From assembly GCA_043808785.1 (NCBI GenBank), contig JAZDEL010000004.1, forward strand, positions 90,001 through 122,000: 32,000 nucleotides of DNA, written 5' to 3'. The translations under genes were made by a program, and so were the position numbers. The notes beneath the pieces are model-generated. The model worked only from the letters and a program-made list of their open reading frames with translations, made no database searches and was not told the DNA's origin. The stretch is from Candidatus Iainarchaeum sp. GTDB lineage: Archaea > Iainarchaeota > Iainarchaeia > Iainarchaeales > JAZDEL01. This document shows, in pieces, positions 262-18,341 of the stretch. Each line of letters opens with the position of its first letter. Within the stretch, counting starts at the first letter, position 1.

Positions 262-3200
262 ATGCCGGGCATGGGCCTTAAAGAGATATACAGGGGAATG
301 GAAAACGGCTATTATTCGTTCCTTGACTCCCTTGATGCCAAGGGAATTCCCGTTTACAAAATCATAGACCCTATAGATAAAATTGTCCCGTCGCTTGCGC
401 TGCTGCTCGGGTTCGTTGCTCTTGTTATAATCGCGGGGCTGTTCCTGCTTATCGCGCCGATGGTTGTGCCGCAAGCATCGACACTGAAAATAAATGTTGC
501 GGATGAGGGGGGCACGCCGATTTACAGGGCGAAGGTTACGTTCACGCTTGATGAAAAAACCACTGAAGCGGAAACGGATTACGAGGGAATGGCGCAGCTG
601 GAGAATGCCGCTGTCGGGAAAAAGGTTTCCGTGAGCGCGGGGAAGGGCGGCTACCTGACGGAAAGCGCGGAGATTGAAATTACCGAGGCGCCGGTGCAGC
701 TGCGCACAATCACCCTCAAGGAGGAAAGCGCGGCATACGAAACAAAAACGATAAGGCTTGTCGATTCCGCGGGCGCATCGCTGATGGAAAGCTTCGTGCT
801 GAAGTTCACGTGCTCGAACCCGTACGCGGAACCGCCTGCGGATGTTTACCTCCAGCCCTCGGATTACGGCACGGCAACAGTGAGGGTGCCCACAAACTGC
901 GAAACCCTGCGCGTAACAGTGAAGGACGGCACGGGCTACGCGGATTACGGGCCTGTTGATGTAAGCGGGAGCGACAAGACAATAACCCTCAGCGCGGCGG
1001 AGCGCGGGAAGGGAATGATTATCGCGTACGTGAGCGGCGAGGAGGGCACGCCGCTCAACGGCATAACAGTGAACCTCTACAGGTATGACGATATTGCCGA
1101 TAACCCGAACGTGGGGCCCATAGATTCGGAATACAGCTACGGGGGGAAGGCGGAATTTTCAAAGGCCGCGGGCAGTTACGTGCTCCGCACCTATGACGAG
1201 GAGGGCACTTACGGCGAACAGCAGTCCCCGAAAATCGTGCTGATTGACGGCGATACCGTCAGTTACGGTTTCACCCTGAGCGCAAACGTGAAGGGGAGCA
1301 TAAAAATAAAGGTTACTGATGCGGACACGGATGAGGCGATTGAGAATGCGGATGTCACGCTCGCCTATGAATCGAGCGGCAACGAACTTGCGGGGATGAA
1401 AACCGATGAAGATGGGCTTGCCGAGTTCAACATAAGCAGGGACGAAACATACAAGGCGACGGCGTATGCGGAGGGCTACTCCTTAGGCACGCTCTCGGGG
1501 CTGAGGAAGTCCGCTGACCAGTACACAATCGAACTCGAAAAATGCACCCCGAGCAGGTGCGGGACACTGAAAGTGCTTGTGATTGACGAGGAAAATGTGC
1601 CTGTGCAGAACGCGATTGTCGTGCTTTACGACGCGGGAAAGAACTGGCTTACAGGCTATGGGGAAAGGCTTTCGGACATAAACGGCGTTGCGGAGTTCAA
1701 GGGCGTGAGTTCCGGGAATTACTGGGCGTTTGCTTTCAAGGAATCGGCATCGGGGAGAAGCGATGCCGCGTACTTCTCCTCGCGCTCGCAGGGTTCGGGA
1801 GCAACGCTGACTGTTGCAATGCAGATAGGGCAGGGCGTTATCAGGGCGAGGATTACGGACAAGTACGGCGAGCCTGTGCCTTTCGCGGGAGTAGATGTAA
1901 GGAATGCCGCGGACGGGGGGGAGATAGGCGCTTCCCTCGGCGACGCGAACGGGATTTTCACAATCGAGACAAAGGCTGACAAGCGCGTTTATTTGGTTGT
2001 GAGCAAGAAGGAGGGTATGAGGGAGCCGATGGCGGATTACGTTACAGTGAGCAAGGCCGTAAGCGCGGGAAGCATTGCGCAGTTCGATGTTGTGATGGAG
2101 CCCGAGATAATTGACCGCGATGTGGAGGTAAAATTCCTCGGGCTTTTCAATGCAAGCGGTGAGGCAAAGGTCCTCTCCGCAGGCGGGGAATACACGGCGA
2201 AATTCCAGGTGCGCGTGCCTGAGGAGGCGGATTATTCGGAGGCGGGCGTGCACATACGCACTGGCGATGCGCTCATAATGGAGAAGGACGGAATTTACAT
2301 AAAGAGCATTAATGTGCCAGAGGCATCGGCGATAAAGGCCGCTGCGTACGATGAGGCAAGCGGAATGGGGGAAGCGGATTACTCGCTCACTGCAGGGGAC
2401 GCGAAGTGGGCGAGCATTGTGTGGCAGAACCCCGCTGCGGGAATTTACGAGGTTTGGGCTGATGTGAAGGCAAAGGAAACCGCTTCCGTGGGGGACAAGC
2501 TTGTTGTCCACTACCGCGCATGGGCGGATAATTCGGAACGCGTATTTGACCCGAAAAACGAGAAGGCGGGTGTGGAGGAATTATATTACACAACGCGCGA
2601 TGCGGTTTATGAGGTGGGTGTGCAGACCTTTTGCGCGGGGGACTTCTGCTTCTCCGCGACAATAACCGATTTGGACGAGGGGCTTATCGAAAGCGTCAGC
2701 GAGGGATATGCAGGAGGCATTTTCAGGGATTACAAATTGTTCTTCACGCTCACGAACAACTCCGCAACAAGGATACATGATAACGCAAACCTCAGGATAA
2801 AGAACCCGGAGAAGAATTTGCTGCTTGCGGATTATTCCGTGTTCGACGCGGAAGGGGAGAACCTGAGCGGAACAATTAACGGCTACGAACTGCCGAGGCT
2901 CGATGTCGGGAACCTGAGCCCGAACAAGAAGGTTGCGGGAACAATTAATTTCACTACGCAAAAAGCCGGCAGCGGCACGGTGAACATCAGGCTTGTTTCG
3001 GATGAGAGCATTGTTTTCGAGAAGAACCTTGTTGTTTCGGTCGGGGCTGCGGGCGAACTTGATGTTTCCGTGCAGCCGAGCTCTTTCCCCTCGGGAATAG
3101 AGAACGACATAAACGTGCTTGTGCTCGACAAGGAAACAAGGCTGGAGATAGAGAAGGCGATTGTGCGCATAAAGGACAAGCACGACAATGTGATTATGCT

Positions 3201-6200
3201 GAGCAAAACAGGGAAGGACGGGTATGCATACCTAACCCTGCCTGCGCAGTCCCCCGGAACCGTGCTCAGGATTGAGGCGGAGAAGCAGGGCTATGATGTA
3301 AAAACCCTTGAGGTGAACATAAGCTCCGCAGTGCTGAGCGTTAACCCGCAGGCAATCGGGGTTTCCCTGAACGCGAAAACAAAGGCCGAGGCGGAGGACA
3401 GGTTCAGCCTTACCAACGCGACTTTCTTCCCGCTGAAGATAACGGAAATAAAACTTATAGGGAACCTTAAAGGGCTCATAGATATGGAGAGGGTTTCCTC
3501 ATGGCTCGAGGCGAATTACGTGAACCTTACCCTCGCCTCCGCGGAAAGGAAGGAACTGAGCCTGCGCACCTACCTGAGCGATGAAGGCATGGCACTTGAG
3601 GACAGGGACAGCCTTGATGCGGAACTGAAAATTATCGCGGGGAACTTCGGGCAGAAGTGGCAGTTTGTTGTTCCCGTGAAAATCTCCATAGGCATGGGTG
3701 GAGAGGTTGATAACCCCGCGTGCCTTGCGCTAACGCGCAGGGAGTGGAAGACAACAACACAGGGCAACGATGTTTCAGTGGAGTTCGGGATACAGAACAA
3801 CTGCACAATCGCGGGCAATCCTGCGGAACTGCGGGATTTGGGCGGCATGCTCGAGGTCACAGGGAACCAATTGGGCAGTTATAAAATAACCATTGTGCAG
3901 AACGAAACAGAGCTCAGGTCGGGTTATTTCAGGACGCTTTTGGGAAGGATGGATGCGGAGCAGGCGGTTTCCGCGGTTGTTACTTTCACGCCATACGGGG
4001 GCGTGAACGGAAAGAGCAGCGCGAAAATTGTGCTGCGCGCAGTGAACCCGCTGGAAGGGGAGAACCAGGTGCTCACGGTAAGCATGGACACCGAGATAGT
4101 TGCCGTGAACATAAAGGAATGCATCTCTTTCGACAGGGAGATTGTTGATGCGCTGCTTGAAAAGCCGCAGGCGGGGAAGCAGAACATGCTTTCGCAGTTC
4201 ACGATAACCACAAAGGGCTGCGGGGATAAAATTGATTTCGAGCTTGAGAGCGAACTCAGGCTGAGCGATACCGACTTCACTATGCAGGCGGACGACACGC
4301 ACAAGATAGACGTGATGTACTCGGATGTTTCTCCGGGGCAGTACCCGATTAAGGTTTACAAAACAGGCAAGGGCGGGAAGGAACTACTGAAGAACCTCAA
4401 GGTAAGGCTCTGGGAAGCGGGCTGCCTGCAGCTGAACAGGTACGAGTTCGAGATTTATGATGATGCCGCCGACCCTTTCGACGGATATGACAGTGCGGAA
4501 TTGCAGAACACGTGCTACAACAAGGAAGTCACTGTCAGCGTCGACATGAAGGACTGGAAGGCGGCGATGAAGGAAGGGAGCAACTGGGCGCTTGTGCTGT
4601 TCGCGGGAAGCCTGCTTTCGAAGGCGGGGAGCGCGCTGGGCGAGAGCAAGTGGCTGCCGAGCTGGCTCGGGGGAAGCGGGGGCATGTGGTTCGGGAGCGA
4701 GAGTTCAAAAACTGAAACCGCCAAGGCAACCGAATGCGGGGTTATTGAAGCACAAATAAAAAGCCTCACAGAGCAATGGAACAGCCTCTGCAGCAGCCAG
4801 GAACTGCGCTCAGCAAACCAAAGCATGTGCGAGGGCATAAGAAAGGACCTTACCGCGGCGGAAACGCAAAAGGTGAAGCTCGGCTGCGGCAAGGCTGCCA
4901 GCCAGGCAACGGGAAATTTAACCCTTGTCGGCATGCTTGAGGGCAACGAGTACGAGATGCCCGCAATTACGGGGCTTGCAACAGGGGCTGAAACGTACGC
5001 GCTCGGCGGGATCGCGTCGTTCCTCATGGGCAGCGGAGGCCTCGGCGGGGCGATGAGCATGATAACCAACGTAATCACGGGAAAGTCTAACCCGCTGACC
5101 TCGGGCGTGCTTGGCTTCCTTGCGGGAACGGTTATGGAGTACATGCAGCAGAAGGATTTTGAATTTGTTACCGTGCAGAAGGATTTGGAGACGCAGGGCA
5201 TAAAACTGCTTGCGGCAAAGGGCGATGCCGCGGAGCCCGCGATAACCGCCGCGTGGTACGGCGATGCGCGCTATGAAAAGAACCCCGCAAACACGAAACT
5301 GAAATTCGAGTTCAGGGAGATAAGGTTCGAGAACGTTGCGGGCGCGGGCGTGTTCGTCACGAGCAATGAGGAACCCGCATACCGCACGCTCACAATAGGC
5401 GGAATACAGCACAACTACCGCGATAAAACCTACAAGAAGGACGATTTCGAAATTATGAACGAGAAATCGTGGTTCGGCTTCCAGGGGGGTACGGAGAAGA
5501 TAGACACCGGCGTTGTGAAGCTTGATGAGGACGCAGCTGATAAGGTTGAGAAGAAGTACCATCTGGAGTTCAATTCAATACCGCCCGGCGACGAGGGCAC
5601 GGGCCCGACAGCGCCGCAGAACTGCCAGGCTGGAACAAGGACGGGCAGCACCGGCGCGGTTGCGCTGCCGCGCGTGAGCCTTAACTGGAACTGGTCATCG
5701 ATAGCCGCGGACGCGTGCGACCAGGGGAACGATAATTACATCTACTGCGACGCAACGCAGTTCGGCATAGAGGTGCTGAAGAAGGTGCACGATATAGATG
5801 ACTGGCTGCTGAAGAACGCGTCAAGGCTCGAGTGCCCGTCAGCGGAAGGGGCAACAGGCACGAACAGCGCGGAGATAGGGAGCTATGATATTGGAGTAAG
5901 CAGGATTTCGGCAAAGAGGGCGGGGAGCGACATAAATGTTTCCGTGGAAATCACGAACACAAACCCCGCAAAGGTGAAAACAACACTTGAGGTTAAGGTT
6001 ACGGACAGCGAGGGCAAGGATGCGGGAGATGTGTGCAGGTTCAAGGAATTCGGGGTTCTGAGCAAGGAGCCCAAAACCTGCACATTCACGCTCGCGGCGG
6101 GCAAGTACAGGGCTACGGCAACAATAACCCCGAAAGTAGATTGCGAGAACTGCGCAAACAAGACCGCTTCGGATTCGCTTGCAACTGAATTCCAGGTCGG

Positions 6201-7566
6201 GAGCGCGGGTGTTGCGGAGTGCGAACCCTACAGCACGGCAAGGCTGGATGAGTTTGTGGCTGCATCGGGAATCAGGGGCGCCGAGGAAATCCTCGGCAAG
6301 GTAAGCTTCAAGGCATACCTCATAAAGGACAGGTACACCGCGGACTTCCAGCGCGACTTCGACGATTACGCAAAGACAAGGAGCTTCTTCAATGCCGCGG
6401 AATGGTACAGGCAAAAGGACAGGGGCCTGGGCAGTTATTTCAAGAACGCCGAATTGTTCAGTTTCAAGCCGAAGTACGGCGAGGCAAACCCTGAGGGGCT
6501 TGCCCTTGTGGGCCCGGGATTGTACGACGTGAAAATAAACATCAAATATGAGGACAGGTCATGGGCGTTGTTCGACGGCAAGGGGCTTGAGAACGCGCAG
6601 ATTGATGTCGAGCTTGAAAGGCTGGACACGCCGGAACCGGACAGCCCGTTCTATTACATGCCTTTCGACGGCCCGATAGGCGAGGATTCCGGGAGAGTAG
6701 GGTACGGGGTTAATTACAAGGGAGAGGAAGTTACGCTTAACAGCGGGGCGGAGAGCGTCAGGACGGTTGAAATTCCCGGCTCAACACCAATAAGCAACGG
6801 TTTGGTCGAGGTTGAGGTTTCGGACAATTTCAGCAGGCTGAACGGCAGCGAGAAGGGCACAATACTCACAGTTACGCGCGGGCAGAACCCGAAGATCGCA
6901 TACACGCCGAGTTATGCAACGCCGGTGATGATGAAAATAACCAAGGGCACGGCAAAGGACAACGAGGCATGGGGCTTCTACAGTTTAGCGATTGACGGAA
7001 AGGCTGCGAGCGCGCGTGCAACCGGGGCTGCGCAGTGGACAGGCACTTACATGGCAAGGTGGAACGGAGTAGGGTACAACTGCAGGGACTTCGACGACAG
7101 GTCCGTGATAGAATCGTTCTACGAGAGCGCCGACCAGCACGGCTTAAGGACGGAGTGCGCGCTGCTCGGGGGGGATATCTCGATGACATCCTACGGCTTC
7201 GAGTTCTGCGACGTCACCAAATTCGGCAACCTGTACCTTAAAACCATATTTTACACCCCGCAGGGCCACTCCGCGCTGATGCGCACCGAGGTTTCAAAGG
7301 ACGGCATGGGCCTCTTCAGCGGCGGAATGGCGAACGCATCAATGGTGCAGCTGAACGGAGTGCAGGGCATGCCCTACAACCAGCACGGAACGCAGGGCAT
7401 AACCAGCGTGCAGAACATGTTTGATTTGGTAAGGGACGGGTATGCATGCGTAAGCAGCAGCGACACAAAGGCGGAGTTCTGGTGGAACCCCGCGAAGATA
7501 TACTTGACCGAGGAATTCCAGAAGAACGAGGACATGGCTGTGCAGGACTGCATAAAGGGCTCCTGA
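262..7566 (+). CDS. giant membrane-anchored surface protein, paralog A (2434 aa, beta-sandwich repeat-rich, function unknown)
   Basis: Uninterrupted 2434-codon ORF. About 40 N-terminal residues are followed by a hydrophobic helix (SLALLLGFVALVIIAGLFLLIAPMVV). Repeated 80-90 aa beta-rich modules (e.g. GSIKIKVTDADTDEAIENADVTLAYESSGNELAGMKTDEDGLAEFNISRDETYKATAYAEGYS) fit the prealbumin/CarboxypepD_reg pattern by eye. It is colinear and homologous with the next ORF. The ATG at 271 (MGLKEIY) aligns better with the paralog N-terminus than the ATG at 262. Confidence 0.9.
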   Translation: MPGMGLKEIYRGMENGYYSFLDSLDAKGIPVYKIIDPIDKIVPSLALLLGFVALVIIAGLFLLIAPMVVPQASTLKINVADEGGTPIYRAKVTFTLDEKTTEAETDYEGMAQLENAAVGKKVSVSAGKGGYLTESAEIEITEAPVQLRTITLKEESAAYETKTIRLVDSAGASLMESFVLKFTCSNPYAEPPADVYLQPSDYGTATVRVPTNCETLRVTVKDGTGYADYGPVDVSGSDKTITLSAAERGKGMIIAYVSGEEGTPLNGITVNLYRYDDIADNPNVGPIDSEYSYGGKAEFSKAAGSYVLRTYDEEGTYGEQQSPKIVLIDGDTVSYGFTLSANVKGSIKIKVTDADTDEAIENADVTLAYESSGNELAGMKTDEDGLAEFNISRDETYKATAYAEGYSLGTLSGLRKSADQYTIELEKCTPSRCGTLKVLVIDEENVPVQNAIVVLYDAGKNWLTGYGERLSDINGVAEFKGVSSGNYWAFAFKESASGRSDAAYFSSRSQGSGATLTVAMQIGQGVIRARITDKYGEPVPFAGVDVRNAADGGEIGASLGDANGIFTIETKADKRVYLVVSKKEGMREPMADYVTVSKAVSAGSIAQFDVVMEPEIIDRDVEVKFLGLFNASGEAKVLSAGGEYTAKFQVRVPEEADYSEAGVHIRTGDALIMEKDGIYIKSINVPEASAIKAAAYDEASGMGEADYSLTAGDAKWASIVWQNPAAGIYEVWADVKAKETASVGDKLVVHYRAWADNSERVFDPKNEKAGVEELYYTTRDAVYEVGVQTFCAGDFCFSATITDLDEGLIESVSEGYAGGIFRDYKLFFTLTNNSATRIHDNANLRIKNPEKNLLLADYSVFDAEGENLSGTINGYELPRLDVGNLSPNKKVAGTINFTTQKAGSGTVNIRLVSDESIVFEKNLVVSVGAAGELDVSVQPSSFPSGIENDINVLVLDKETRLEIEKAIVRIKDKHDNVIMLSKTGKDGYAYLTLPAQSPGTVLRIEAEKQGYDVKTLEVNISSAVLSVNPQAIGVSLNAKTKAEAEDRFSLTNATFFPLKITEIKLIGNLKGLIDMERVSSWLEANYVNLTLASAERKELSLRTYLSDEGMALEDRDSLDAELKIIAGNFGQKWQFVVPVKISIGMGGEVDNPACLALTRREWKTTTQGNDVSVEFGIQNNCTIAGNPAELRDLGGMLEVTGNQLGSYKITIVQNETELRSGYFRTLLGRMDAEQAVSAVVTFTPYGGVNGKSSAKIVLRAVNPLEGENQVLTVSMDTEIVAVNIKECISFDREIVDALLEKPQAGKQNMLSQFTITTKGCGDKIDFELESELRLSDTDFTMQADDTHKIDVMYSDVSPGQYPIKVYKTGKGGKELLKNLKVRLWEAGCLQLNRYEFEIYDDAADPFDGYDSAELQNTCYNKEVTVSVDMKDWKAAMKEGSNWALVLFAGSLLSKAGSALGESKWLPSWLGGSGGMWFGSESSKTETAKATECGVIEAQIKSLTEQWNSLCSSQELRSANQSMCEGIRKDLTAAETQKVKLGCGKAASQATGNLTLVGMLEGNEYEMPAITGLATGAETYALGGIASFLMGSGGLGGAMSMITNVITGKSNPLTSGVLGFLAGTVMEYMQQKDFEFVTVQKDLETQGIKLLAAKGDAAEPAITAAWYGDARYEKNPANTKLKFEFREIRFENVAGAGVFVTSNEEPAYRTLTIGGIQHNYRDKTYKKDDFEIMNEKSWFGFQGGTEKIDTGVVKLDEDAADKVEKKYHLEFNSIPPGDEGTGPTAPQNCQAGTRTGSTGAVALPRVSLNWNWSSIAADACDQGNDNYIYCDATQFGIEVLKKVHDIDDWLLKNASRLECPSAEGATGTNSAEIGSYDIGVSRISAKRAGSDINVSVEITNTNPAKVKTTLEVKVTDSEGKDAGDVCRFKEFGVLSKEPKTCTFTLAAGKYRATATITPKVDCENCANKTASDSLATEFQVGSAGVAECEPYSTARLDEFVAASGIRGAEEILGKVSFKAYLIKDRYTADFQRDFDDYAKTRSFFNAAEWYRQKDRGLGSYFKNAELFSFKPKYGEANPEGLALVGPGLYDVKINIKYEDRSWALFDGKGLENAQIDVELERLDTPEPDSPFYYMPFDGPIGEDSGRVGYGVNYKGEEVTLNSGAESVRTVEIPGSTPISNGLVEVEVSDNFSRLNGSEKGTILTVTRGQNPKIAYTPSYATPVMMKITKGTAKDNEAWGFYSLAIDGKAASARATGAAQWTGTYMARWNGVGYNCRDFDDRSVIESFYESADQHGLRTECALLGGDISMTSYGFEFCDVTKFGNLYLKTIFYTPQGHSALMRTEVSKDGMGLFSGGMANASMVQLNGVQGMPYNQHGTQGITSVQNMFDLVRDGYACVSSSDTKAEFWWNPAKIYLTEEFQKNEDMAVQDCIKGS

Positions 7567-7650: not shown

Positions 7651-7664
7651 AGAAACGCCCTAAT

Positions 7665-7735: not shown

Positions 7736-10700
7736 TTGCTGAAGGAACTTTACGAAAAGCTGGAGAACGGCTGGTACGACCTCCTTGACAAGGTCAACGC
7801 CTCGGTCCCTGTTTACAAAATTATAGACCCGATAGATAAGGTTGTCCCTTCCTTTGCGCTGCTGCTCGGCGCTGTCGGGCTAATTGCACTGCTCCTGCTC
7901 TGGTTTTTTGTGCTGCCAATGCTCACCGGGCCGCGGGGGGACGCAACCCTTACTGTCAAGATTGAGACCGAATCAGGCAGCGCGGTAAGGAGCGCGGCGG
8001 TTGAGATTTCATTTGCGGGCGAAACCCGGGACGGAAAAACCGGCAGCGGCGGGGAGGCGGTTTTTGAAAACATTCCCATGGGTTCCGAGGTTAAAATTTC
8101 AGTAACGAAAACAGGCTATGAGGATGCGGGGAAAACAATAAGGGTTTCGCAGAAGGAGGAAGCGGTTACAATAACTATGAAGGCAGGTGGGCCCCCTCCG
8201 CCGCCCGATAATCAGGTCACCATAACCTTCGTCGGCCCCGACGGGAAGAAGGCTTCCGGCGTAACCCTTTACCTCGACTTAAGGTGCAGTTCCGGCGCTT
8301 TCTTTGACGAGCCTCAGCGCACCACAACCACGGGCGATATCACGGTCACGCCACCGCAGGGCTGCGGAACCATTGTCGTGAATGTTTCGGGCGACGATTT
8401 CAGGCCGGGAAGCTATTACACGAACGGCGGCACTGTAAGGCTGCAGGGCAACGGAACAGATGAGATGGATGCGGGCACGGGCTCGATAATCATAACCGTG
8501 AAAGATGAAAACGGCACAAAGCGCCTGAGCGGGATTAAAATAACCGTTTACGATTCGTACGGCACAACCGCGGGGAGCGCATACACCTCGATGGGCGAGG
8601 CGGAATTTACCCTTGCCGCGGGGGATTACGTTGCGTCGCTCGACGATGAAAAGGGGGATTACGCAAGCGAAAGCCTCGAGTTCAGCATGGCGCCCGGGGA
8701 CGAACTGAGCGAAACCGTGACAATGGGCAAAATGCCCGGTGCGATATTAGAGGTTTCCGTTGAAGCCAGGGAGAGCGGCGCCTCGATTGAAGGGGCAATT
8801 GTTTTCCTCAGGGCGGAGAACGGGGCAATGCTGGAGCGCGAAACAGGGAACAGCGGCATTGCGCAATTCACGCTCTCGCCGAAGGACAGGGGAAAATATT
8901 ACGCCTCCGCAACTGCGGAAGGGTTCATCGCTTCGGATGAAACCGAAATAGACCTTGCCGATGTGAAAGCGGGGGAAACCGTAAATGTGGAACTTGCGCT
9001 TGAGAAATGCACCCCGCAGAAGTGCGGGCTGCTTAAGGTAAAGGTGATTGACGAGGACAGCCTCAAGGTGCAAAATGCGGAGGTTTCCCTCTTCAATGCG
9101 GAAACGGGATTCTGGGCAAAGGAGTACGGGAAGAAGGCGACGGATGTCAACGGCGCTGTCGAGTTTGCAAACGTCAGGGCGGGGAAGTATTACGCGCTTG
9201 CGCAGAAATACCCCGCAACAGGCCAGTCCGAACATTATGATGTCGACCCGAACGCAACCGGGAATGAGATTATTGTGAACATGGTTATAGGCAACGGAAC
9301 CCTGCGCGTGGAGGTTACGGATGTGGATAACGCGCCTGTGCCATTTGCGGACGTCGAAATCAAAACGCAGGGCGGGGAAGAGCTCGGCACTATTCCCGCG
9401 CTCGCGAACGGGATAATGAGCAGGGAATTCAAGGCTGACAAGAGTGTGTATGTTGTCGTGAGGAAGGAAGGGTACACGACATTCACCTCCACGCCGGTGC
9501 AGATTTTCCCGGACCGGGTTGAAACCATTTCCGCGAAATTGGAGGAGGAAATTTTGGGGGACAGGGCGAAAGTGGAACTGCTCGGGATTTTCGAAGGGAG
9601 CAAGGAAATGGAGAACCTTTCCGCGGGGAAAAAATACACAATAAAAATGCGCCTCAGGGTTCCTTCCGAGGGCGGGTTCGATGAGGTTGGTTTGCACGTG
9701 CGCACAGGCACGGAGAACCTTGCGGAGAAGGACAAGATTTACATCAATTGGGTTAACGCACCGTACAGCACTGTGCTGAAGGGTTCCACTTATAACGCGC
9801 CGCTTGGGAATGCGGACGGCACCGAGGAAATAACAAACGGCGACGCCAAATGGGCGAGCATAGTGTGGGGCGAGCCCGAAGCGGGAATTTATAATGCGGA
9901 TATAGAAGTGAGAGTGCGCTCCGAAACGACAAGAGGCTTCTTGCTCCCCTTCTATTACCGCGCATGGAGTTTAAAGAACGGGGAATACCTGCGCGACCCG
10001 CAGGATGACGCGCTCGGCAGCGCAGCGGAAACCGCGGAGAAGGGGGCGCTTTACGCCGAGGCGTACGTGAAGAACTATTTCGAGGGCACGTCCGAACTTT
10101 GCGATGATGAATTTTGCTACAGCGAGAGGGTTTATGATATTGCGGAGGGCATGAACCTTACCCAAACGCCTTACCCGATAAGGGTTACGGGGGAGTACAG
10201 GTGGGAGTTCACGATAACGAACAATTCGCAGACAATTCACGATAATGCGAACATAAGGGTAAAGAACACGCAGGAGGGTACAACGACTGATTCCGTTGTG
10301 CGGGTGCAGTCCTATACGCTTACAAACGCCGACGGGAAGGTTTTCACAGGGAGCAAGCCGACATTCGAACTTGAACAGATAGATGCGGGGAAAATGGGCT
10401 GGAACAAATCGGTTAAAGGCGAACTGATGCTGCAGGGAAGGGAACTTGAAGAAAGCAATATGGGGATTAAGATTGTTTCCGCGGGGAACGTGGTGTTCGA
10501 CAAACTGGTGCCCTTCGAGGTTTATTCGGAGAAGGATGTAAGGCTCACTGTAAAGCCGGATGTTATCCCCTCGCTTACCCCTACGGAGCTCAAGGTAACC
10601 GCCGAGTACGAGGACGAGCAGGAGGGCGAGTGGCTCGAACTTGAAAAGGCGTTTGTGACGGTTACGATAACAACGCCCGACAAGGCGCAGAGCAGGGAGC

Positions 10701-13700
10701 CGAAATACACCGACAAGAAGGGGATTGCGAAGTTCGATATTCCCGCCTCGGCCCCGGGAACGAAAATAAAAATACGCGTGGAGAAGCCGGGTTACGCGAC
10801 AAAAACCGCGGAGAAGGAGGTCAGCGCCAAGGTTGTTTCATTCGAGCCCGAAAGCCTTGCCTCCGAACTGAACCTTACGGACGCGCTGGAGAATTACCAG
10901 GAATTGAAAATTACCAACCTCACAACAAAAAACCTCAAAATAAGTTCAATGCACGCCACGGGCAGGCTTTACGGTTTGCTCGATTTGGAGCGCATGGACA
11001 GCTGGCTCGGGACGCAGTTGATTGAAATCAAGGAAGGGGAAACGGAAAGCATCAGCTTCCAGACAGCGCTGAACGAGGAGATTGCAGGCCTGCTGAAAAA
11101 GGTGCAAAGCGTGGAGGGCAAGCTTGTAATTAACATGGACGATTCCGCGGGAATAGGCACGTGGAGCTTTGAAGTGCCTTTCAGGGTGAGCATAAACCCC
11201 ACTGTTTCGACCAAGTACGAGAACTGCCTTGCTGTTTCGATAAAGGAGTGGAACGACACAATCTTCAACGGCTCAGCCACAATTACATTCACTGTTTCGA
11301 ACAACTGCGTTGACGCAAAGGACAAGCCCATGGCGCTGAAGAACCTGCGCGCGGGCATTAAGTGGAATTCGGACAGCATAGGGCTTGTGAAACTTACCGC
11401 AAAGGATTTGGAGAGCGGGGAAACCGCGCCGCTGGAAGTGCTGCAGGAAAGGGCTTACGCGCCGATGTTTTCCGGCGTTCCCGCGGGCGCTGAGTACGAG
11501 TTTGCCGCCACTTTCACGCCGAAGCCGAGCACGGAGCCCGGTTCGGTTGCGAAGTTCGATATTATGTTCGAAGCCTCCCTGCTCGGCGGAACGGGGGAGG
11601 AAACGGTTAACGCGAGCAATGCAATTGCCTCCACAATAACCGTTGCAAATATGGAGAAGTGCGTTACTTACGAGCCGAACCCCGAGGAAGGGGTAAAGGT
11701 CACCATGGATTCCACAAAGGACAAGCTGGGAGAGTTCAAGATAATCAACAACTGCGGCAATGCAGCGCTTGACTTCAGGTTCTGCCACGGCGATAACGGG
11801 TGCAAGGGAGGCACTGAAGAAGGGGGAATTACGCTGGGAGGCATACCTGATGACAGGGTAATAAAGGACCTCAGGAGCGGGGAGGACAAAACCATTACAA
11901 TAAAGTCCGCTGAAATGCCGGGGATTTACGGCGTTACAATAGAGGCGCGCGCAGCGGGCGGCGCTTGGGTGCAGATTGCGGTAATGGATGTCATTGTCCA
12001 CCCGCGCGCGGGAACTTACATAGATATGGACAAGTACAAGTTCACAATAATAGGGAAGGGCGCGAAGGACAGCGCGAAGGTCGTGAACACGATGGTTCAC
12101 GAGCCCGTGAAGGTCAAGGCGGATTTGTGCGCATGGGGGGAGGCTGTTAAGGATAAGAAGTTCTCAAGCGGACAAATTGCAGGCATATCGGCTGGCGCAG
12201 GGTTGGCAGCCGCGACCATTGCGGTAGCGACAGACTCGGCTGCGGCATATGCTATAGGCGGGGCAGTATTGGCAGCAGCAAACTCAGTTGCACCAGGTGC
12301 CGCCTTGGCTGCAGGGGCAGGCGTAATAGGACTTGCGGTCGTAGTTGTTGCAGTGATTGCGCTTTTGGCATTCAACGCCTTCAACAAAAAAGACTGCCAT
12401 GACGATACCGAGGTGCAGACCCTCGAGGATTATGTAATCCTCCTCGCGGGCGGAAGCGAACTCGCTCCCGATGCGCGCGGGATATTCTCCGGAATGGACA
12501 AGGAGGTTGCTGCGAAGTTCAACCTGATGATTAAGGAGTATGCGGACGAGAAGGAATATGTCGGCGCCGTGTTCGAGAACATCGGCGCGCAGGAGCAGGG
12601 TTCGGTTTACTCGGTTGCAAGCCTGAAGGTTACTGAGCACGTGCATGGAGACCCGTACCACAAGGGAAACGCATTTGTTGAATGCGATAACGGGCACTTC
12701 CGCCCGTGGTGGATAGGCGCTAGCGGAACGCAGGGTGCATGTAAAGGCGCTTATGACCAGGAAAACGAATACAAGTTCCACCTCAGGTTCAGGACAGGCG
12801 AGGAGAAGGAATCACTGCCGCAGACGGACTTCGACACATACCCCTGCATGGGCTCAAGCGGGGAGATAGGCAGGACAGGCACAGGTGCGGTGCCGCAGGT
12901 GAAGCTCGACTGGAGCTGGAACGAGCCGGAGGGCATCGCATACAACAGCTGCGACGCGGACAACCCCGAGGGGGTGTACTGCGACGCGACGCAGTTCAGC
13001 ATTGAGTTAAGCAAGAGGCTCTACCGCCTGCACGAGTTCCTGAAGATTAACGGCTATGATTTCACGTGCCCCGACCCAGGCAATTCCGCAAACACTGCGC
13101 TTGCGGAAAAGAATGCGGAAACAGGGACGCATGTGGTCTCAAGCGGAAAGCTCGGGCTGAGGGACCTGACAGCGGAGGTTTCGGGCAAGGATGTTGAAGC
13201 AACGGCAACCGTGCATAACAAGACAACGAAAATGCAGGATGCGGATGTTAAAGTGATTCTGCAGGGAGCGAACAAATCCGATGAGTGCACCATAAACATA
13301 AAAGATATCGGTACCGCGGCGGCAAAGGAAGGGAGCTGCGAATTCGGGGATTTGGACAGCGGGACGTACGCACTGCTTGCGCAGATTAGTTCGGTTACAA
13401 CGACCTCGCTGGACAACTCGACAGTCAGTTATGGCTTCATGATTGCCGAGGAGGCTTCGAAGGAAGCAAAGGCTTATGGCTGCGAGTTCTCCAGAAACAC
13501 CGAAACATACTACGGCGTGCCGAACATAGTTCGGTTCGTGGAGGAAACTGAAAACGTGAGGTGGACCGCTGACGTGCACAACATAAACGAGCTCAGGGAC
13601 CTGCTGAAGTTCAACGCTTACCTGATGAAAGACGGATATACGACCGACTTCAAAAAGGACTTCGTGCAGTATTACAACAACACGCCGTTCATGGATACGC

Positions 13701-14914
13701 CGACATATTTCACTGATTTGGAGAACGGCAAGGGGCTGGATGTGCTGTTTGATTCGGGGCTTGTAACTTACACCGAGAAATTCATAAACGAAACGGAAAC
13801 AAAGCTTGCGTCCGCGGGAATATATGAGGTTGAAATCGCCGCTTATTTCGGCAAGGACTGGAGGTTCTTTGACGACAAGGGAAAGGCGAACACCGCGGTT
13901 GCTGTCGTGCTTTACAGGCTCAAGGACGCATACCCCAACAGCCCGCTCTACAGCATGCCTTTCGACGGGCTTGTAGGATTGGAAGGGGAAACCTTCGACA
14001 GGCAGGGCTACGGCACGGGATATGACAACTTCAGCGCGGAGGACATGCTGCAGATAAACAACGACTCCGTGCCAGTGAAAACCTACATGAGCGCTGGCTC
14101 TAACCCGATTTCGAACGCGGAAACGGAAATCGTTTCCGACTTCAAGAGCCTGAACTCGGACCCTGAAACAAGGGGCGCATTGCTTGTGATTGACAGGAGC
14201 GGAGGAACGCCAAAAATGAGCTTCATGCCCTCGCGCGCAACGCCGGTGATGATGAAAGTAAGCAGGGAGGAGGCGACAAAGGAGCCTTTCGCCGCGTTCT
14301 ACACGGTCACAATGGGCGGCAGCCCGATAACCGTGAACAGCGGCACGCCCACGGGAACAGGCTCGGTGCTAACATACTGGGACGGCGCGGGAAACTGCCT
14401 GGACTTTGGCGGCACGCCCGTCTGGAAGAAGTTCTACCAGCAGCCCGACAGGCAGGCGGACAGCAAGGACGGCATAAGCGCATGGCAGAACGCATATGCA
14501 ATGGACTGGGAAAAGGCGCTGTACGGCGGCAACGTGTTCCTGCGCACGATATTCTACACAAGCCCATATGAGAACATGGGGCTTGCCGCCGCGCAGCCCG
14601 GCGATACGGTGAAATTCTTCACGCCCGACGGGGAGGGGCTGGCGGTAGAATTGAACGGGATAAACGGCATGGAGCACAATAAGAAGGGCGGCGGAAGCCT
14701 CGACACTATATACTCCATGGAGGACATATTCAGCCTTGTCGGGGAGCAGGCTGTGTGCGCGACAAGCACCGGCAACCAGGTTAAGTTCTGGTGGAACCCG
14801 CAGAAAATTTACACGCAGAAAGGGGACAGCGGAACAAGTATAAGCGAGATGACAACCGCGCTGAGCCCATATTCGGCATACGGGGACCTGGTGTGCATAG
14901 GCGGGGCAGGGTAA
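7736..14914 (+). CDS. giant membrane-anchored surface protein, paralog B (2392 aa, function unknown)
   Basis: Uninterrupted 2392-codon ORF. The TTG start gives (M)LKELYEKLENGWYDLLD...PVYKIIDPIDKVVPSFALLLG, which aligns with the N-terminus of ORF A. Conserved blocks shared along the whole length include EKCTP..CG.LKV.VIDE, GDAKWASIVW, IHDNAN, YCDATQF, MPFDG, ATPVMMK and FWWNP.KIY. Confidence 0.9.
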   Translation: MLKELYEKLENGWYDLLDKVNASVPVYKIIDPIDKVVPSFALLLGAVGLIALLLLWFFVLPMLTGPRGDATLTVKIETESGSAVRSAAVEISFAGETRDGKTGSGGEAVFENIPMGSEVKISVTKTGYEDAGKTIRVSQKEEAVTITMKAGGPPPPPDNQVTITFVGPDGKKASGVTLYLDLRCSSGAFFDEPQRTTTTGDITVTPPQGCGTIVVNVSGDDFRPGSYYTNGGTVRLQGNGTDEMDAGTGSIIITVKDENGTKRLSGIKITVYDSYGTTAGSAYTSMGEAEFTLAAGDYVASLDDEKGDYASESLEFSMAPGDELSETVTMGKMPGAILEVSVEARESGASIEGAIVFLRAENGAMLERETGNSGIAQFTLSPKDRGKYYASATAEGFIASDETEIDLADVKAGETVNVELALEKCTPQKCGLLKVKVIDEDSLKVQNAEVSLFNAETGFWAKEYGKKATDVNGAVEFANVRAGKYYALAQKYPATGQSEHYDVDPNATGNEIIVNMVIGNGTLRVEVTDVDNAPVPFADVEIKTQGGEELGTIPALANGIMSREFKADKSVYVVVRKEGYTTFTSTPVQIFPDRVETISAKLEEEILGDRAKVELLGIFEGSKEMENLSAGKKYTIKMRLRVPSEGGFDEVGLHVRTGTENLAEKDKIYINWVNAPYSTVLKGSTYNAPLGNADGTEEITNGDAKWASIVWGEPEAGIYNADIEVRVRSETTRGFLLPFYYRAWSLKNGEYLRDPQDDALGSAAETAEKGALYAEAYVKNYFEGTSELCDDEFCYSERVYDIAEGMNLTQTPYPIRVTGEYRWEFTITNNSQTIHDNANIRVKNTQEGTTTDSVVRVQSYTLTNADGKVFTGSKPTFELEQIDAGKMGWNKSVKGELMLQGRELEESNMGIKIVSAGNVVFDKLVPFEVYSEKDVRLTVKPDVIPSLTPTELKVTAEYEDEQEGEWLELEKAFVTVTITTPDKAQSREPKYTDKKGIAKFDIPASAPGTKIKIRVEKPGYATKTAEKEVSAKVVSFEPESLASELNLTDALENYQELKITNLTTKNLKISSMHATGRLYGLLDLERMDSWLGTQLIEIKEGETESISFQTALNEEIAGLLKKVQSVEGKLVINMDDSAGIGTWSFEVPFRVSINPTVSTKYENCLAVSIKEWNDTIFNGSATITFTVSNNCVDAKDKPMALKNLRAGIKWNSDSIGLVKLTAKDLESGETAPLEVLQERAYAPMFSGVPAGAEYEFAATFTPKPSTEPGSVAKFDIMFEASLLGGTGEETVNASNAIASTITVANMEKCVTYEPNPEEGVKVTMDSTKDKLGEFKIINNCGNAALDFRFCHGDNGCKGGTEEGGITLGGIPDDRVIKDLRSGEDKTITIKSAEMPGIYGVTIEARAAGGAWVQIAVMDVIVHPRAGTYIDMDKYKFTIIGKGAKDSAKVVNTMVHEPVKVKADLCAWGEAVKDKKFSSGQIAGISAGAGLAAATIAVATDSAAAYAIGGAVLAAANSVAPGAALAAGAGVIGLAVVVVAVIALLAFNAFNKKDCHDDTEVQTLEDYVILLAGGSELAPDARGIFSGMDKEVAAKFNLMIKEYADEKEYVGAVFENIGAQEQGSVYSVASLKVTEHVHGDPYHKGNAFVECDNGHFRPWWIGASGTQGACKGAYDQENEYKFHLRFRTGEEKESLPQTDFDTYPCMGSSGEIGRTGTGAVPQVKLDWSWNEPEGIAYNSCDADNPEGVYCDATQFSIELSKRLYRLHEFLKINGYDFTCPDPGNSANTALAEKNAETGTHVVSSGKLGLRDLTAEVSGKDVEATATVHNKTTKMQDADVKVILQGANKSDECTINIKDIGTAAAKEGSCEFGDLDSGTYALLAQISSVTTTSLDNSTVSYGFMIAEEASKEAKAYGCEFSRNTETYYGVPNIVRFVEETENVRWTADVHNINELRDLLKFNAYLMKDGYTTDFKKDFVQYYNNTPFMDTPTYFTDLENGKGLDVLFDSGLVTYTEKFINETETKLASAGIYEVEIAAYFGKDWRFFDDKGKANTAVAVVLYRLKDAYPNSPLYSMPFDGLVGLEGETFDRQGYGTGYDNFSAEDMLQINNDSVPVKTYMSAGSNPISNAETEIVSDFKSLNSDPETRGALLVIDRSGGTPKMSFMPSRATPVMMKVSREEATKEPFAAFYTVTMGGSPITVNSGTPTGTGSVLTYWDGAGNCLDFGGTPVWKKFYQQPDRQADSKDGISAWQNAYAMDWEKALYGGNVFLRTIFYTSPYENMGLAAAQPGDTVKFFTPDGEGLAVELNGINGMEHNKKGGGSLDTIYSMEDIFSLVGEQAVCATSTGNQVKFWWNPQKIYTQKGDSGTSISEMTTALSPYSAYGDLVCIGGAG

Positions 14915-18340: not shown

Positions 18341-18341
18341 G

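What the first reader, a model, noticed from the sequence alone, without database searches (positions are those of the whole stretch)
262..14914. Tandem pair of colinear giant paralogs (2434 and 2392 aa) with no recognisable enzymatic domain
**Seen in the sequence.**
- Two back-to-back same-strand ORFs occupy about 45% of the window, each with its own TATA-like box and long leader.
- They align end to end by eye. Shared blocks in order:
  - the N-terminal module (PVYKIIDPIDK plus a TM helix)
  - EKCTP(S/Q)(R/K)CG.LKV.VIDE
  - PVPFA(G/D)V
  - KADK.VY.VV.K
  - GDAKWASIVW
  - YRAW
  - TNNS...IHDNAN(L/I)R(I/V)KN
  - a central Gly/Ala-rich hydrophobic region
  - TGAV....(L/V).(L/W).W
  - YCDATQF(G/S)IE
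  - AYL(I/M)KD.YT.DF..DF
  - SP(F/L)Y.MPFDG
  - ATPVMMK
  - TIFYT
  - FWWNP.KIY
- Percent identity was not computed. The blocks are separated by divergent stretches, so this is an old duplication, not an assembly artefact.

**Established knowledge.** The N-terminal two thirds carry repeats fitting the prealbumin/CarboxypepD_reg beta-sandwich pattern common in surface proteins.

**Inference.** These are very large membrane-anchored cell-surface proteins, of the kind reported in small-genome episymbiotic archaea for host or cell contact. I recognise no protease, nuclease, glycosidase or ATPase motif anywhere in them.
Basis: partly seen in the sequence, partly recalled or inferred. Interest (0 to 1): 0.75.

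Follow-up and report, generated by a model that had tools for sequence, protein, structure and literature searches.

The report
Conserved giant surface-protein pair, Iainarchaeota
Two adjacent 2,400-residue genes are ancient paralogs of an undescribed family of membrane-anchored surface proteins that many tiny DPANN archaea (Diapherotrites/Iainarchaeota) keep in the same order, ending in a 660-residue domain whose confidently predicted fold matches no known structure.

Summary
ORFs 262-7566 (2434 aa) and 7736-14914 (2392 aa) fill 45% of the window. They are colinear paralogs, 32% identical over 2237 aligned columns, and all the motif blocks I tested occur in the same order.

The window comes from a Candidatus Diapherotrites (Iainarchaeota, DPANN) MAG. 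The pair is a conserved locus:
- A-type then B-type order occurs in 41 of 72 related loci and is never reversed.
- Arrays often hold 3-4 copies.
- They are usually followed by three small membrane proteins, a HerA-like protein and PolB.
- An exhaustive HMMER search finds 764 cluster representatives.

Architecture:
- a conserved 40-aa cytosolic motif plus a TM anchor
- CarboxypepD_reg-type Ig domains in the first ~600 aa
- a further stretch with paired cysteines
- a Gly/Ala-rich hydrophobic centre, strongly TM-like only in B
- a 660-aa Cys-bearing C-terminal module

The C module has no Pfam, NCBIfam, PHROGs or PDB sequence match. Its AlphaFold model (pLDDT 92.5) has no global Foldseek analogue in PDB or BFVD.

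My best reading, which is inferred, is a paired A/B envelope or adhesion structure that is not an enzyme. It is a new variant of the giant DPANN surface-protein theme, of moderate interest.

The parts
166..180 (+). TATA-like box upstream of the A-type gene
   Evidence: Sequence aatatataaatag lies about 90 nt before the ATG at 262, and an SD-like aaggggg run lies directly before the start. Promoter function was not tested.
262..7566 (+). A-type giant gene (p1): 2434 aa, 264 kDa, pI 4.73. It is NCBI MFH1224881.1.
   Evidence: ORF list. Exact match in the protein collection. Orthologs score 2-4 times higher to p1 than to p2 in 41 or more loci.
262..459 (+). N-terminal module of p1: a conserved cytosolic motif (aa 1-41, LKEIY..ENGYY..LD..PVYKIIDPIDK) followed by a signal-anchor TM helix (aa about 42-66)
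   Evidence: KD hydrophobicity 3.09. A 20-sequence alignment has invariant Y10, E14, Y18, D39, P43 and S44. This is the most conserved DNA stretch between the two genes, 62 nt at 87%.
475..2061 (+). Ig-like / prealbumin-type beta-sandwich repeats of p1 (aa about 72-600)
   Evidence: PF13620 CarboxypepD_reg scores E 3.8e-21 and 75.7 bits against a cut-off of 32.3, in 4 stretches. SpaA, bMG3, MG4 and Ig_DR_A0283-like also hit. Tiling places the domains at about aa 75-152, 346-420, 435-490 and 527-600.
2062..4566 (+). Second ectodomain stretch of p1 (aa about 601-1435). It has paired cysteines and no significant Pfam match.
   Evidence: Only sub-threshold DUF4352, CARDB and Filamin hits. The Cys pairs 791/796, 1154/1181 and 1287/1320 are matched in p2 by 789/794, 1164/1191 and 1309/1340.
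4567..5241 (+). Central Gly/Ala-rich hydrophobic region of p1 (aa about 1436-1660), including a p1-specific 4-Cys helical insert
   Evidence: Translation. No window reaches KD 1.6. Partly conserved Gly residues and a hydrophobic stretch GVLGFLAGTVMEY appear across 61 A-type proteins. This is the least conserved part between p1 and p2.
5584..7563 (+). C-terminal signature module of p1 (aa 1775-2434, 660 aa), with motifs TGAVALPRV, YCDATQF, AYLIKDRYTADFQRDF, SPFYYMPFDG, ATPVMMK, TIFYT and FWWNP
   Evidence: No Pfam, NCBIfam or PDB sequence match. AlphaFold2 gives pLDDT 92.5 and pTM 0.81. No global Foldseek analogue in PDB or BFVD, TMq at most 0.15. A profile of this region (alignment A1, p1 aa 1661-2434 and relatives) finds 764 cluster representatives.
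5857..6198 (+). Ig-like beta-sandwich insert inside the C module (model residues 92-205)
   Evidence: This is the only part with structural matches: generic beta-sandwiches such as GH2 Ig-like domains, the Wzt CBD and 3isy, aligned over about 120 residues. The insert is absent from relative P0002.
7636..7652 (+). TATA-like box upstream of the B-type gene
   Evidence: Sequence aataattatataaataag lies about 85 nt before the TTG at 7736, preceded by an SD-like gaaggggcgg.
7736..14914 (+). B-type giant gene (p2): 2392 aa, 259 kDa, pI 4.68
   Evidence: ORF list. 83% identical to the 2381-aa gene of L073 (this length equals P0008's), which has the same TTG start. B-type orthologs lie directly downstream of the A-type gene in 41 loci.
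12176..12391 (+). Central hydrophobic segments of p2 (aa 1481-1499 and 1517-1552): a predicted membrane hairpin or re-entrant anchor
   Evidence: KD 1.71 and 2.98. Among the relatives listed, strong central segments occur in those that resemble p2 and lie 200-250 aa before YCDATQF. Hydrophobic character is conserved but sequence is not.
12833..14911 (+). C-terminal signature module of p2 (aa about 1700-2392)
   Evidence: Aligns with the p1 module at 28-31% identity and carries the same motifs.
14924..15104 (+). 59-aa mini-gene that encodes only the family's N-terminal module (cytosolic motif plus TM). It is NCBI MFH1224883.1.
   Evidence: tblastn from the N-termini of giants in other loci gives E 2e-9. 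The exact sequence is in NCBI. The same 59-aa ORF sits in L073 directly after the B gene, 83% identical, with pN/pS about 0.21.
16508..18659 (+). Small polytopic membrane proteins s1 (16508-16960), s2 (16983-17366), s3 (17913-18248) and s4 (18312-18659), syntenic with the giants
   Evidence: Of 36 loci with at least 1.5 kb after the last giant, s1 homologs follow in 28, s2 in 29 and s3 in 25. The window and L073 copies are 78-97% identical. No Pfam match. A functional link is inferred only.

Best explanation
**Shown**
- The two genes are the A-type and B-type members of an ancient paralog pair of an undescribed protein family. The family is found almost only in Iainarchaeota ('Diapherotrites') and related DPANN archaea.
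- Each protein has the following parts, in order:
  - a conserved ~40-residue N-terminal motif
  - one strongly hydrophobic helix
  - a run of Ig-like beta-sandwich domains with conserved cysteine pairs
  - a Gly/Ala-rich hydrophobic centre
  - a 660-residue, Cys-bearing C-terminal module with a confidently predicted fold that has no detectable analogue

**Inferred mechanism**
- Each protein inserts as a type II (N-in) membrane protein through its signal-anchor helix. The short conserved N-terminal motif stays in the cytoplasm as a docking or targeting site.
- About 2,300 residues are exported.
- The Ig-like domains form a long stalk or arch.
- In B, the central hydrophobic hairpin re-attaches the chain to the membrane.
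- The disulfide-bonded C-terminal modules of A and B act as the head that pairs A with B or binds a ligand.
- Together they build a hetero-oligomeric envelope spike or canopy with a structural and adhesive role, not a catalytic one.
- The small membrane proteins encoded just downstream (s1-s4), and the 59-aa N-module-only protein, are candidate membrane partners.
For: **Paralogy and age**
- Searches show 32% identity, colinear from end to end.
- Searches show the A-then-B order in 41 of 72 loci, never reversed.
- One search shows separate A and B clades.

**Family size and range**
- One search found 204 stretches and kept 69 loci, nearly all Iainarchaeum, AR10 or Micrarchaeota MAGs.
- One search found 764 representatives, 498 of them at E<=1e-30. 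Most are 2200-3250 aa with the module at the C-terminus.

**Anchor and topology**
- Searches find an N-terminal TM in nearly all members and no TM in the C module.
- One search shows that P0002 has a signal peptide followed by the C module.
- Searches show 8 nearly invariant Cys in the C module.
- One search shows Cys pairs at homologous positions in p1 and p2.

**Ig-like stalk:**. Longer relatives add only fn3 and Ig domains.

**No catalytic signature:**

**Ordinary evolutionary rate rather than arms-race diversification:** the giants are 83-89% identical between the window and L073, against 84% for PolB and 93% for the HerA-like protein.

**Conserved neighbourhood of small membrane proteins:**

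**Conserved cytosolic motif, also found as a stand-alone gene under purifying selection:**
Against: - Nothing here shows expression, localisation, A-B contact or adhesion.
- Topology rests on a Kyte-Doolittle scan, not a dedicated predictor. The A-type centre is only weakly hydrophobic, so A and B may differ in topology.
- Four loci with enough flank (L023, L034, L040, L053) carry a single giant, so a heteromer is not obligatory.
- The C module has invariant or nearly invariant acidic and aromatic residues: D249 and D258 in AYLxKDxYxxDFxxDF, plus D56/Q59, R371, D517 and W634/N635. These could equally form an active site or a sugar-binding site.
- Foldseek was run on the whole 660-aa model. The Ig-like insert dominates the hits and could mask a weak match to the core.
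- Synteny with s1-s4 may only reflect conserved gene order in small genomes.
Confidence: 0.45

Rival explanations
1. The giants are the true S-layer of Iainarchaeota. A and B would assemble into a two-dimensional lattice covering the cell, in the way SlaA/SlaB do in Sulfolobales.
For: - Lineage-wide conservation and conserved synteny.
- Two co-encoded, membrane-anchored, acidic large proteins.
- An ordinary evolutionary rate.
- No other candidate envelope protein was seen in the window.
Against: - No hit to any S-layer Pfam or NCBIfam model. The Micrarchaeum S-layer protein, by contrast, is 101 kDa and carries PF05123 (bioRxiv 10.1101/2021.04.28.441871).
- The giants have 26-30 Cys each, whereas S-layer proteins are typically poor in sulfur-containing amino acids (same paper).
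- Both subunits are anchored and are about 260 kDa, above the usual 40-200 kDa range.
- Only 32 kb of the genome was examined, so a conventional S-layer gene elsewhere cannot be excluded.
Confidence: 0.15
2. The giants are a cell-cell contact apparatus that engages another cell. The Ig-like stalk would reach the partner, and the Gly-rich or hydrophobic central region would insert into the partner's membrane, like a fusion peptide or glycine zipper, to open a bridge.
For: [quoted passage not shown]
- There is an internal hydrophobic or Gly-rich region that is not needed for anchoring, because an N-terminal TM already exists.
- Precedent: SPEARE giants of Nanohaloarchaeota (PMC6642349).
Against: - The central region is the least conserved part of the protein, at 50% identity even between close relatives and poorly alignable across the family.
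- The giants are not fast-evolving.
- No structural match to fusogens or pore formers in PDB or BFVD for the C module.
- Several Diapherotrites have been argued to be free-living (statements quoted in PMC5905446 and PMC6642349).
Confidence: 0.15
3. The C-terminal module is a novel surface-tethered enzyme or lectin, for example a polysaccharide- or peptide-degrading domain, displayed on an Ig-domain stalk.
For: - Invariant D249 and D258, nearly invariant D56, Q59, D254, R371, Y374, D517, W634 and N635, and many conserved aromatic residues.
- The globular, high-confidence fold is large enough for an active site.
- P0002 attaches the module to a different N-terminal part, which is the behaviour of a mobile functional domain.
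Against: - No similarity to any enzyme family by Pfam, NCBIfam or PDB sequence search.
- Foldseek matches to glycosidases are confined to their non-catalytic Ig-like domains.
- Keeping two to four divergent paralogs in fixed order fits structural subunits better than a single enzyme.
Confidence: 0.1
4. The pair is cargo of a mobile element or provirus, for example a tail-fibre or adhesin-like protein, or else an assembly duplication.
For: - A TnpB (IS605 OrfB) gene lies 420 nt downstream.
- Family-B DNA polymerases and HerA-like ATPases also occur on archaeal mobile elements.
Against: - No PHROGs hit for either giant or for the neighbouring genes tested.
- The same gene order, giants then s1-s3 then the HerA-like protein then PolB, recurs across dozens of MAGs and two complete chromosomes.
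- TnpB is a separate insertion that is absent from the close relative L073.
- DNA identity between the two genes is limited to stretches of at most 62 nt.
Confidence: 0.02

Closest known systems
SPEARE proteins of Nanohaloarchaeota (Hamm et al. 2019, PMC6642349)
   Same: - Giant (3,300-8,500 aa) membrane-anchored proteins, mostly extracytoplasmic, in small-genome DPANN archaea.
- Several copies per genome, taking up a few percent of it.
- Rich in adhesion-type beta-sandwich domains.
- Proposed to mediate contact with other cells.
   Different: - SPEARE proteins are defined by a serine protease, laminin-G domains and a cytoplasmic type III restriction-endonuclease region, usually with the TM near the C-terminus.
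- None of these features is found here. Here the anchor is N-terminal and the conserved part is an extracellular C-terminal module of unknown fold.
- There is no sequence relationship.
Archaeal two-component S-layers (Sulfolobales SlaA/SlaB from my own knowledge; Micrarchaeum SLP_Mh from bioRxiv 10.1101/2021.04.28.441871)
   Same: - Adjacent genes for large, acidic surface proteins, at least one of them membrane-anchored.
- Conserved across a lineage.
- Beta-sandwich-rich.
   Different: - No S-layer Pfam or TIGRFAM domain.
- Both subunits are homologous to each other and both are anchored.
- They are Cys-rich and about 260 kDa.
- Lattice formation is unknown.
Tandem 'Giant1-5' extracellular proteins of Apilactobacillus kunkeei (PMC12863079, abstract seen)
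   Same: Consecutive same-strand genes for very large surface proteins that occupy several percent of a small (1.5 Mb) genome in a symbiont. The array arose by duplication.
   Different: They are bacterial, 3,000-8,000 aa, and have no sequence relationship to this family. Their anchoring and domains differ. I read only the abstract of that paper.
Bacterial Ig-repeat proteins with CarboxypepD_reg / SpaA / alpha-2-macroglobulin MG domains (Pfam PF13620, PF17802, PF11974)
   Same: The first ~600 residues contain these domain types at significant scores. NCBI's PGAP names p1 'carboxypeptidase-like regulatory domain-containing protein'.
   Different: These domains make up only about a quarter of the protein and say nothing about function. 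The N-terminal motif, the hydrophobic centre and the C module that define this family are absent from those proteins.

Membership tests
Undescribed Iainarchaeota giant-protein family (defined in this report) | C-terminal signature module of about 660 aa with the motifs YCDATQF, AYLxKDxYxxDFxxDF, PFDG, ATPV, FYT and FWWNP | tested here: met
   Both p1 and p2 carry all the motifs in order. The profile search finds 764 representatives, and 45- and 110-sequence alignments show the conserved columns.
Undescribed Iainarchaeota giant-protein family (defined in this report) | N-terminal cytosolic motif (Y..E...Y..LD...IDxIDK..PSF) directly followed by a TM helix | tested here: met
   Present in p1, in p2 and in the 59-aa mini-gene. 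Y10, E14, Y18, D39, P43 and S44 are invariant in 20 sequences. A minority of relatives (P0027, P0031, P0032, P0034) lack the motif but keep the TM.
Undescribed Iainarchaeota giant-protein family (defined in this report) | Same-strand tandem array with the A-type gene upstream of the B-type gene | tested here: met
   The window has A then B. The same order occurs in 41 of 72 loci and is never reversed. Four loci have a single giant.
CarboxypepD_reg-domain proteins (Pfam PF13620) | At least one domain above the Pfam gathering score | tested here: met
   p1 scores 75.7 bits and p2 74.0 bits, against a cut-off of 32.3. This is membership at the domain level only.
SPEARE proteins (Nanohaloarchaeota) | Serine protease domain and laminin-G adhesion domains in the ectodomain | tested here: not met
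   No peptidase or laminin-G family appears in Pfam at E<=1 or in NCBIfam at E<=0.01. The defining features are taken from PMC6642349.
SPEARE proteins (Nanohaloarchaeota) | Conserved cytoplasmic type III restriction-endonuclease region | tested here: not met
   No nuclease or helicase family hits. The only predicted cytoplasmic part is about 40 residues.
Archaeal S-layer protein families (PF05123 and related TIGRFAMs) | S-layer N- or C-terminal domain detectable by profile | tested here: not met
   No such family appears in the Pfam or NCBIfam scans of p1 and p2.
Archaeal S-layer protein families (functional definition) | Forms a regular 2-D lattice and is among the most abundant cell proteins | not testable with these tools
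   This needs cryo-EM or ET and proteomics of an Iainarchaeota-containing sample.
PGF-CTERM / archaeosortase-processed surface proteins | C-terminal PGF motif followed by a TM helix and a basic tail | tested here: not met
   The C-termini read ...QDCIKGS and ...LVCIGGAG, and no hydrophobic segment follows the YCDATQF motif.
Class II fusogens (fusexin / HAP2) | Structural similarity of the ectodomain to solved fusexin, HAP2 or viral class II structures | tested here: inconclusive
   No such entry is among the 50 matches listed for PDB or for BFVD with the C-module model. However, only the C module was modelled, and the whole-model search is dominated by the Ig-like insert.

The most novel reading that the evidence does not exclude
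The A/B giants may form a previously unrecognised envelope or cell-contact machine shared across Iainarchaeota. It would also include the stand-alone N-module mini-protein, the small polytopic membrane proteins s1-s4 and possibly the neighbouring HerA/DUF87-like protein. Its head domain would be a new protein fold. Its conserved cytosolic N-terminal motif would be a new docking or sorting signal that couples the surface structure to a cytoplasmic partner.
Probability: 0.2. Interest if true: 0.8.

Novelty: new variant of a known kind. Interest (0 to 1): 0.55.

Why it matters
Iainarchaeota (Diapherotrites) are uncultivated DPANN archaea with genomes of about 1-1.25 Mb. Their cell envelope and lifestyle, free-living or symbiotic, are unresolved.

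- This locus takes 14.5 kb here, which would be about 1.2% of such a genome. It takes up to about 29 kb where four copies stand in tandem.
- It is kept in the same order across the lineage.
- It therefore very likely encodes a core surface structure.
- It is a concrete, testable candidate for how these cells build their envelope or contact others.
- It also contributes a large, well-predicted domain without a known structural relative, and a conserved cytosolic N-terminal motif of unknown partner.

Tried and rejected
- **Word-indexed protein searches.** Using the C module alone and then a 45-sequence profile returned only 2 and 7 proteins. The candidate cap hides the family. The exhaustive HMMER search and the genome scan were needed.
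- **First AlphaFold run.** With 9 sequences it gave pLDDT 58, and only Ig-insert matches came back. I discarded it in favour of the 48-sequence run.
- **Alignment and job failures.** Alignments were too large or failed internally.
- **PDB sequence searches.** The C-module profile and full-length p1 gave only chance-level hits, E>=0.02.
- **PHROGs.** No hits.
- **Rfam.** No family reached its gathering score anywhere in the window. No tRNA was found.
- **The 1477-aa ORF at 26890-31323.** I tested it as a possible further paralog. It is unrelated, best E 0.2, and has no counterpart in the related loci.
- **The 59-aa ORF.** I first read it as a third paralog truncated by the TnpB insertion. I rejected this because L073 has the same 59-aa ORF, no IS, and pN/pS of about 0.21.
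- **Exact-match look-ups.** The encoding-contig look-ups for p1 and P0168 found nothing on record. The source was identified through the listing of cluster members instead.
- **Literature.** Three full-text searches found no description of this family, only generic remarks on large extracellular proteins in a Diapherotrite.
- **The 515-aa neighbour.** I could not confirm the HerA/CedD assignment. DUF87 scores 17.9 bits against a cut-off of 23.2, CedD scores 21.8 against 600, and there is no PDB hit.
Full report
**1. The observation**

The window holds two same-strand ORFs, 262..7566 (ATG, 2434 aa) and 7736..14914 (TTG, 2392 aa). Together they cover 45.3% of the 32 kb.

- BLASTP aligns the first 1520 residues at 30% identity, E 2e-166.
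- A global alignment is colinear to the last residue, with 726 identities in 2237 aligned columns (32%). It scores 2191, against -251 to -311 for shuffled controls.
- At the DNA level the two genes share nothing longer than 62 nt at 87%, and that stretch encodes the N-terminal motif. A recent duplication or an assembly artefact is therefore excluded.
- TATA-like boxes at 166-180 and 7636-7652, and G-rich runs before the starts, are present as described. Leader length is unverified.
- The TTG start of the second gene is conserved in its ortholog.

**2. Source and family**

p1 is identical to NCBI MFH1224881.1, a 'carboxypeptidase-like regulatory domain-containing protein' of a Candidatus Diapherotrites archaeon MAG on a 200,738-bp contig. 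The neighbouring 59-aa ORF and the TnpB gene are MFH1224883.1 and MFH1224884.1.

- A pattern scan of one genome per GTDB species found 204 stretches that encode relatives of the C-terminal region. The scan kept 69 loci. Nearly all come from Iainarchaeum, AR10, 'Diapherotrites' or Micrarchaeota MAGs, and two are complete chromosomes.
- Two loci are labelled Chloroflexi (L022) and Thaumarchaeota (L032). L022 has the same synteny, so it is probably mis-binned.
- An exhaustive profile search of 1.84 billion cluster representatives found 764 proteins at E<=1e-3 and 498 at E<=1e-30. Most are 2200-3250 aa with the match at the C-terminus.
- The word-indexed searches badly under-report the family.

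**3. The pair is ancient and its order is fixed**

- In 41 of 72 loci a gene scoring much higher to p1 (A-type) is followed directly by one scoring much higher to p2 (B-type). The reverse order never occurs. Most exceptions lack flanking sequence, and four loci have one giant only.
- Arrays often continue. Some loci have an upstream, more divergent 'Z' copy that still ends in the family's ...VC...WN... motif, and one or two further copies downstream of B. Up to four giants stand in a row in L012 and L014.
- An NJ tree of 107 C modules splits into a Z clade (11), a B clade (48, with p2) and an A clade (48, with p1).

**4. Anatomy**

- **N-terminal module.** About 40 residues with a strongly conserved motif (consensus MGxxxxLKDxYxxxEDKYYxxLDxxDxxxPVYKIIDPIDKVVPSFAL; invariant Y10, E14, Y18, D39, P43, S44) are followed by a hydrophobic helix with KD about 3. 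This is the best-conserved part between p1 and p2.
- **Ig-like region.** CarboxypepD_reg (E 4e-21 and 1e-20), SpaA, bMG3, MG4 and Ig_DR_A0283-like hits lie at about aa 72-600.
- **Second ectodomain stretch.** From aa 600 to about 1435 there are only sub-threshold Ig-type hits. Cysteine pairs sit at homologous positions in both paralogs, for example 428/433 and 425/430, 791/796 and 789/794, and 1154/1181 and 1164/1191.
- **Hydrophobic centre.**
  - p2 has strongly hydrophobic segments at aa 1481-1499 and 1517-1552. Among the relatives listed, those resembling p2 have similar segments 200-250 residues before YCDATQF.
  - p1 and the relatives resembling it have only a Gly-rich, weakly hydrophobic region.
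  - This region is the least conserved. It is only 50% identical between close relatives, where the rest of the protein is 66-96%.
- **C-terminal module.**
  - It spans about 660 aa and has eight nearly invariant cysteines.
  - D258 is invariant in all three C-module alignments. D249 is invariant in two and nearly so in the third.
  - Nearly invariant residues include D56, Q59, D254, R371, Y374, D517, W634 and N635.
  - An Ig-like insert present here is absent from the relative P0002.
- **General properties.** The proteins are acidic (pI 4.7) and weigh 264 and 259 kDa. N-glycosylation sequons are slightly above expectation, 20 and 22 against about 15.6 with SD 3.5.

**5. The C module has no known relative**

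- No Pfam match at E<=1, no NCBIfam match at E<=0.01 and no PHROGs match at E<=0.001 falls in it.
- A 45-sequence profile finds nothing in PDB sequences below E 0.08.
- With a 48-sequence alignment, AlphaFold2 gives pLDDT 92.5 and pTM 0.81. The model runs in this order: a beta-hairpin, a 25-residue helix after YCDATQF, the Ig-like insert, a mixed alpha/beta segment containing the AYLxKD...DFxxDF helix, and a large beta-rich C-terminal half.
- Foldseek against PDB and BFVD returns only about 120-residue matches to the Ig-like insert. These are non-catalytic domains of GH2 enzymes, the Wzt CBD and 3isy. Global TM-scores are at most 0.15.
- Two caveats apply. The whole model was searched, so a weak core match could be masked. 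No AlphaFold DB library was available.

**6. Location and topology (inferred)**

- The C module should be extracellular, for three reasons: its conserved cysteines, the absence of any TM segment in it, and P0002, which joins a signal peptide and an unrelated N-terminal part to the same module.
- p1 has no strongly hydrophobic segment apart from the N-terminal helix. The simplest topology is therefore N-in, with everything else outside.
- By homology, B needs an even number of central spans or a re-entrant segment. That would tie the Ig-like region to the membrane at both ends.

**7. Neighbourhood**

- **59-aa ORF.**
  - Directly after p2 lies a 59-aa ORF (14924-15104) that encodes only the N-terminal module.
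  - I first took it for a paralog truncated by the adjacent IS.
  - The close relative L073 has the order A (89% identical), B (83%), the same 59-aa ORF (83%), then s1, with no IS. The mini-gene shows pN/pS of about 0.21. It is therefore a conserved small gene in this clade.
- **TnpB element.** It spans about 15157-16478 and sits between a TATA-like TTATTTAA and the start of s1.
- **Downstream genes.**
  - The small polytopic membrane proteins s1, s2 and s3 follow the last giant in 28, 29 and 25 of 36 loci that have enough flank.
  - A divergently oriented gene comes next.
  - A 515-aa protein with only sub-threshold HerA/DUF87 and CedD similarity follows, seen in 14 loci.
  - A minus-strand 154-aa ORF (22269-22733) and an intein-containing PolB complete the block.
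- s1 and s2 are weakly similar to each other.
- Whether any of these genes works with the giants is open.

**8. Mechanism**

- I commit to a paired A/B, membrane-anchored envelope or adhesion structure, with confidence 0.45. It would consist of:
  - a signal-anchor insertion
  - a conserved cytosolic docking motif
  - an Ig-domain stalk or arch
  - a re-anchoring hairpin in B
  - disulfide-bonded heads that pair with each other or bind a ligand
- Between the window and L073 the giants diverge about as much as the N-terminal part of PolB and somewhat more than the HerA-like protein. This fits a core structural role better than an arms-race adhesin.
- The rivals, scored separately, are a true S-layer lattice (0.15), a partner-membrane-engaging contact device (0.15), a surface-tethered enzyme or lectin (0.10), and mobile-element cargo or an artefact (0.02).

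**9. Comparison with known systems**

- It works most like the giant surface proteins reported for DPANN archaea. It is not a SPEARE protein, because the protease, laminin-G and restriction-endonuclease features are absent.
- It is not a member of the known S-layer families.
- It has no PGF-CTERM.
- Only the generic CarboxypepD_reg domain membership holds.
- Three full-text searches found no description of the family, only a generic remark about large extracellular proteins in the Diapherotrite Forterrea.

**10. Verdict**

It is a new variant of a known kind: an undescribed family conserved across this group of DPANN archaea, with a fixed A/B order, a new cytosolic motif and a C-terminal domain that lacks a structural relative. 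Function remains inferred. Interest is 0.55.

Noticed in passing
window 14924-15104 (+); L073 10001-10180: A 59-aa ORF encodes only the giants' N-terminal module (cytosolic motif plus TM helix). It is identical to NCBI MFH1224883.1. A related genome keeps it at the same length and position, 83% identical with pN/pS of about 0.21. It therefore looks like a functional mini-protein rather than a decaying remnant.
   Followed up: yes
window about 15157-16478 (TnpB gene 15334-16473, +): An IS200/IS605-type element carrying TnpB only (OrfB_IS605, Cas12f1-like TNB and HTH domains) is inserted directly after a TATA-like TTATTTAA and 29 nt before the s1 start. The relative L073 has the uninterrupted site. 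The insertion probably separates s1-s4 from their promoter. Rfam found no omega-RNA family at gathering score.
   Followed up: partly
window 16508-16960, 16983-17366, 17913-18248, 18312-18659 (+): Four small polytopic membrane proteins (s1-s4) have no Pfam match. In most related loci, s1-s3 follow the last giant gene within a few hundred bases. s1 and s2 share a VRGxLG motif and weak similarity (E 1e-5).
   Followed up: partly
window 20658-22205 (+), 22269-22733 (-), 22882-26649 (+): A 515-aa protein has only sub-threshold HerA/DUF87 (17.9 bits against 23.2) and CedD similarity. It is followed by a minus-strand 154-aa ORF and a family-B DNA polymerase interrupted by an intein with a LAGLIDADG domain. 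The same three genes lie downstream of the giants in several other loci (for example L053, L057 and L062).
   Followed up: partly
window 26890-31323 (+): A third very large ORF (1477 aa) has no Pfam or PHROGs match. Its only hit is a sub-threshold 'acidic double-disulfide repeat' near the C-terminus. It is unrelated to the giants (best E 0.2) and has no counterpart in any of the 72 related loci.
   Followed up: partly
L001 3060-6605 (P0002, Logan SRR22387960): A 1181-aa protein joins a signal peptide and an unrelated Cys-rich N-terminal part to the family's C module, which here lacks the Ig-like insert. This shows that the module can move as an independent secreted domain. It comes from the same sample as the close relative L073.
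   Followed up: partly
L004, L012, L014, L015, L016, L020, L021, L024, L036 (ORFs upstream of the A-type gene): Many arrays begin with a further, much more divergent 'Z-type' giant of more than 1400 aa. It still ends in the ...VC...(L/F)WN... motif and forms its own clade. Window bases 1-51 hold the end of an upstream ORF (…AINRCGRRTVRAGAAR*) whose identity could not be determined.
   Followed up: partly
window 1-16000: The coding strand of the giants has a strong, uniform purine excess: GC skew +0.11 to +0.21 and AT skew +0.14 to +0.25. The AT skew fades or reverses at about 16-20 kb, where minus-strand ORFs are listed.
   Followed up: no
L022 (labelled Chloroflexi bacterium) and L032 (labelled Thaumarchaeota archaeon): These two contigs carry typical family genes, and L022 also has the s1-s3 synteny. 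They are probably Iainarchaeota contigs mis-binned into other MAGs.
   Followed up: no
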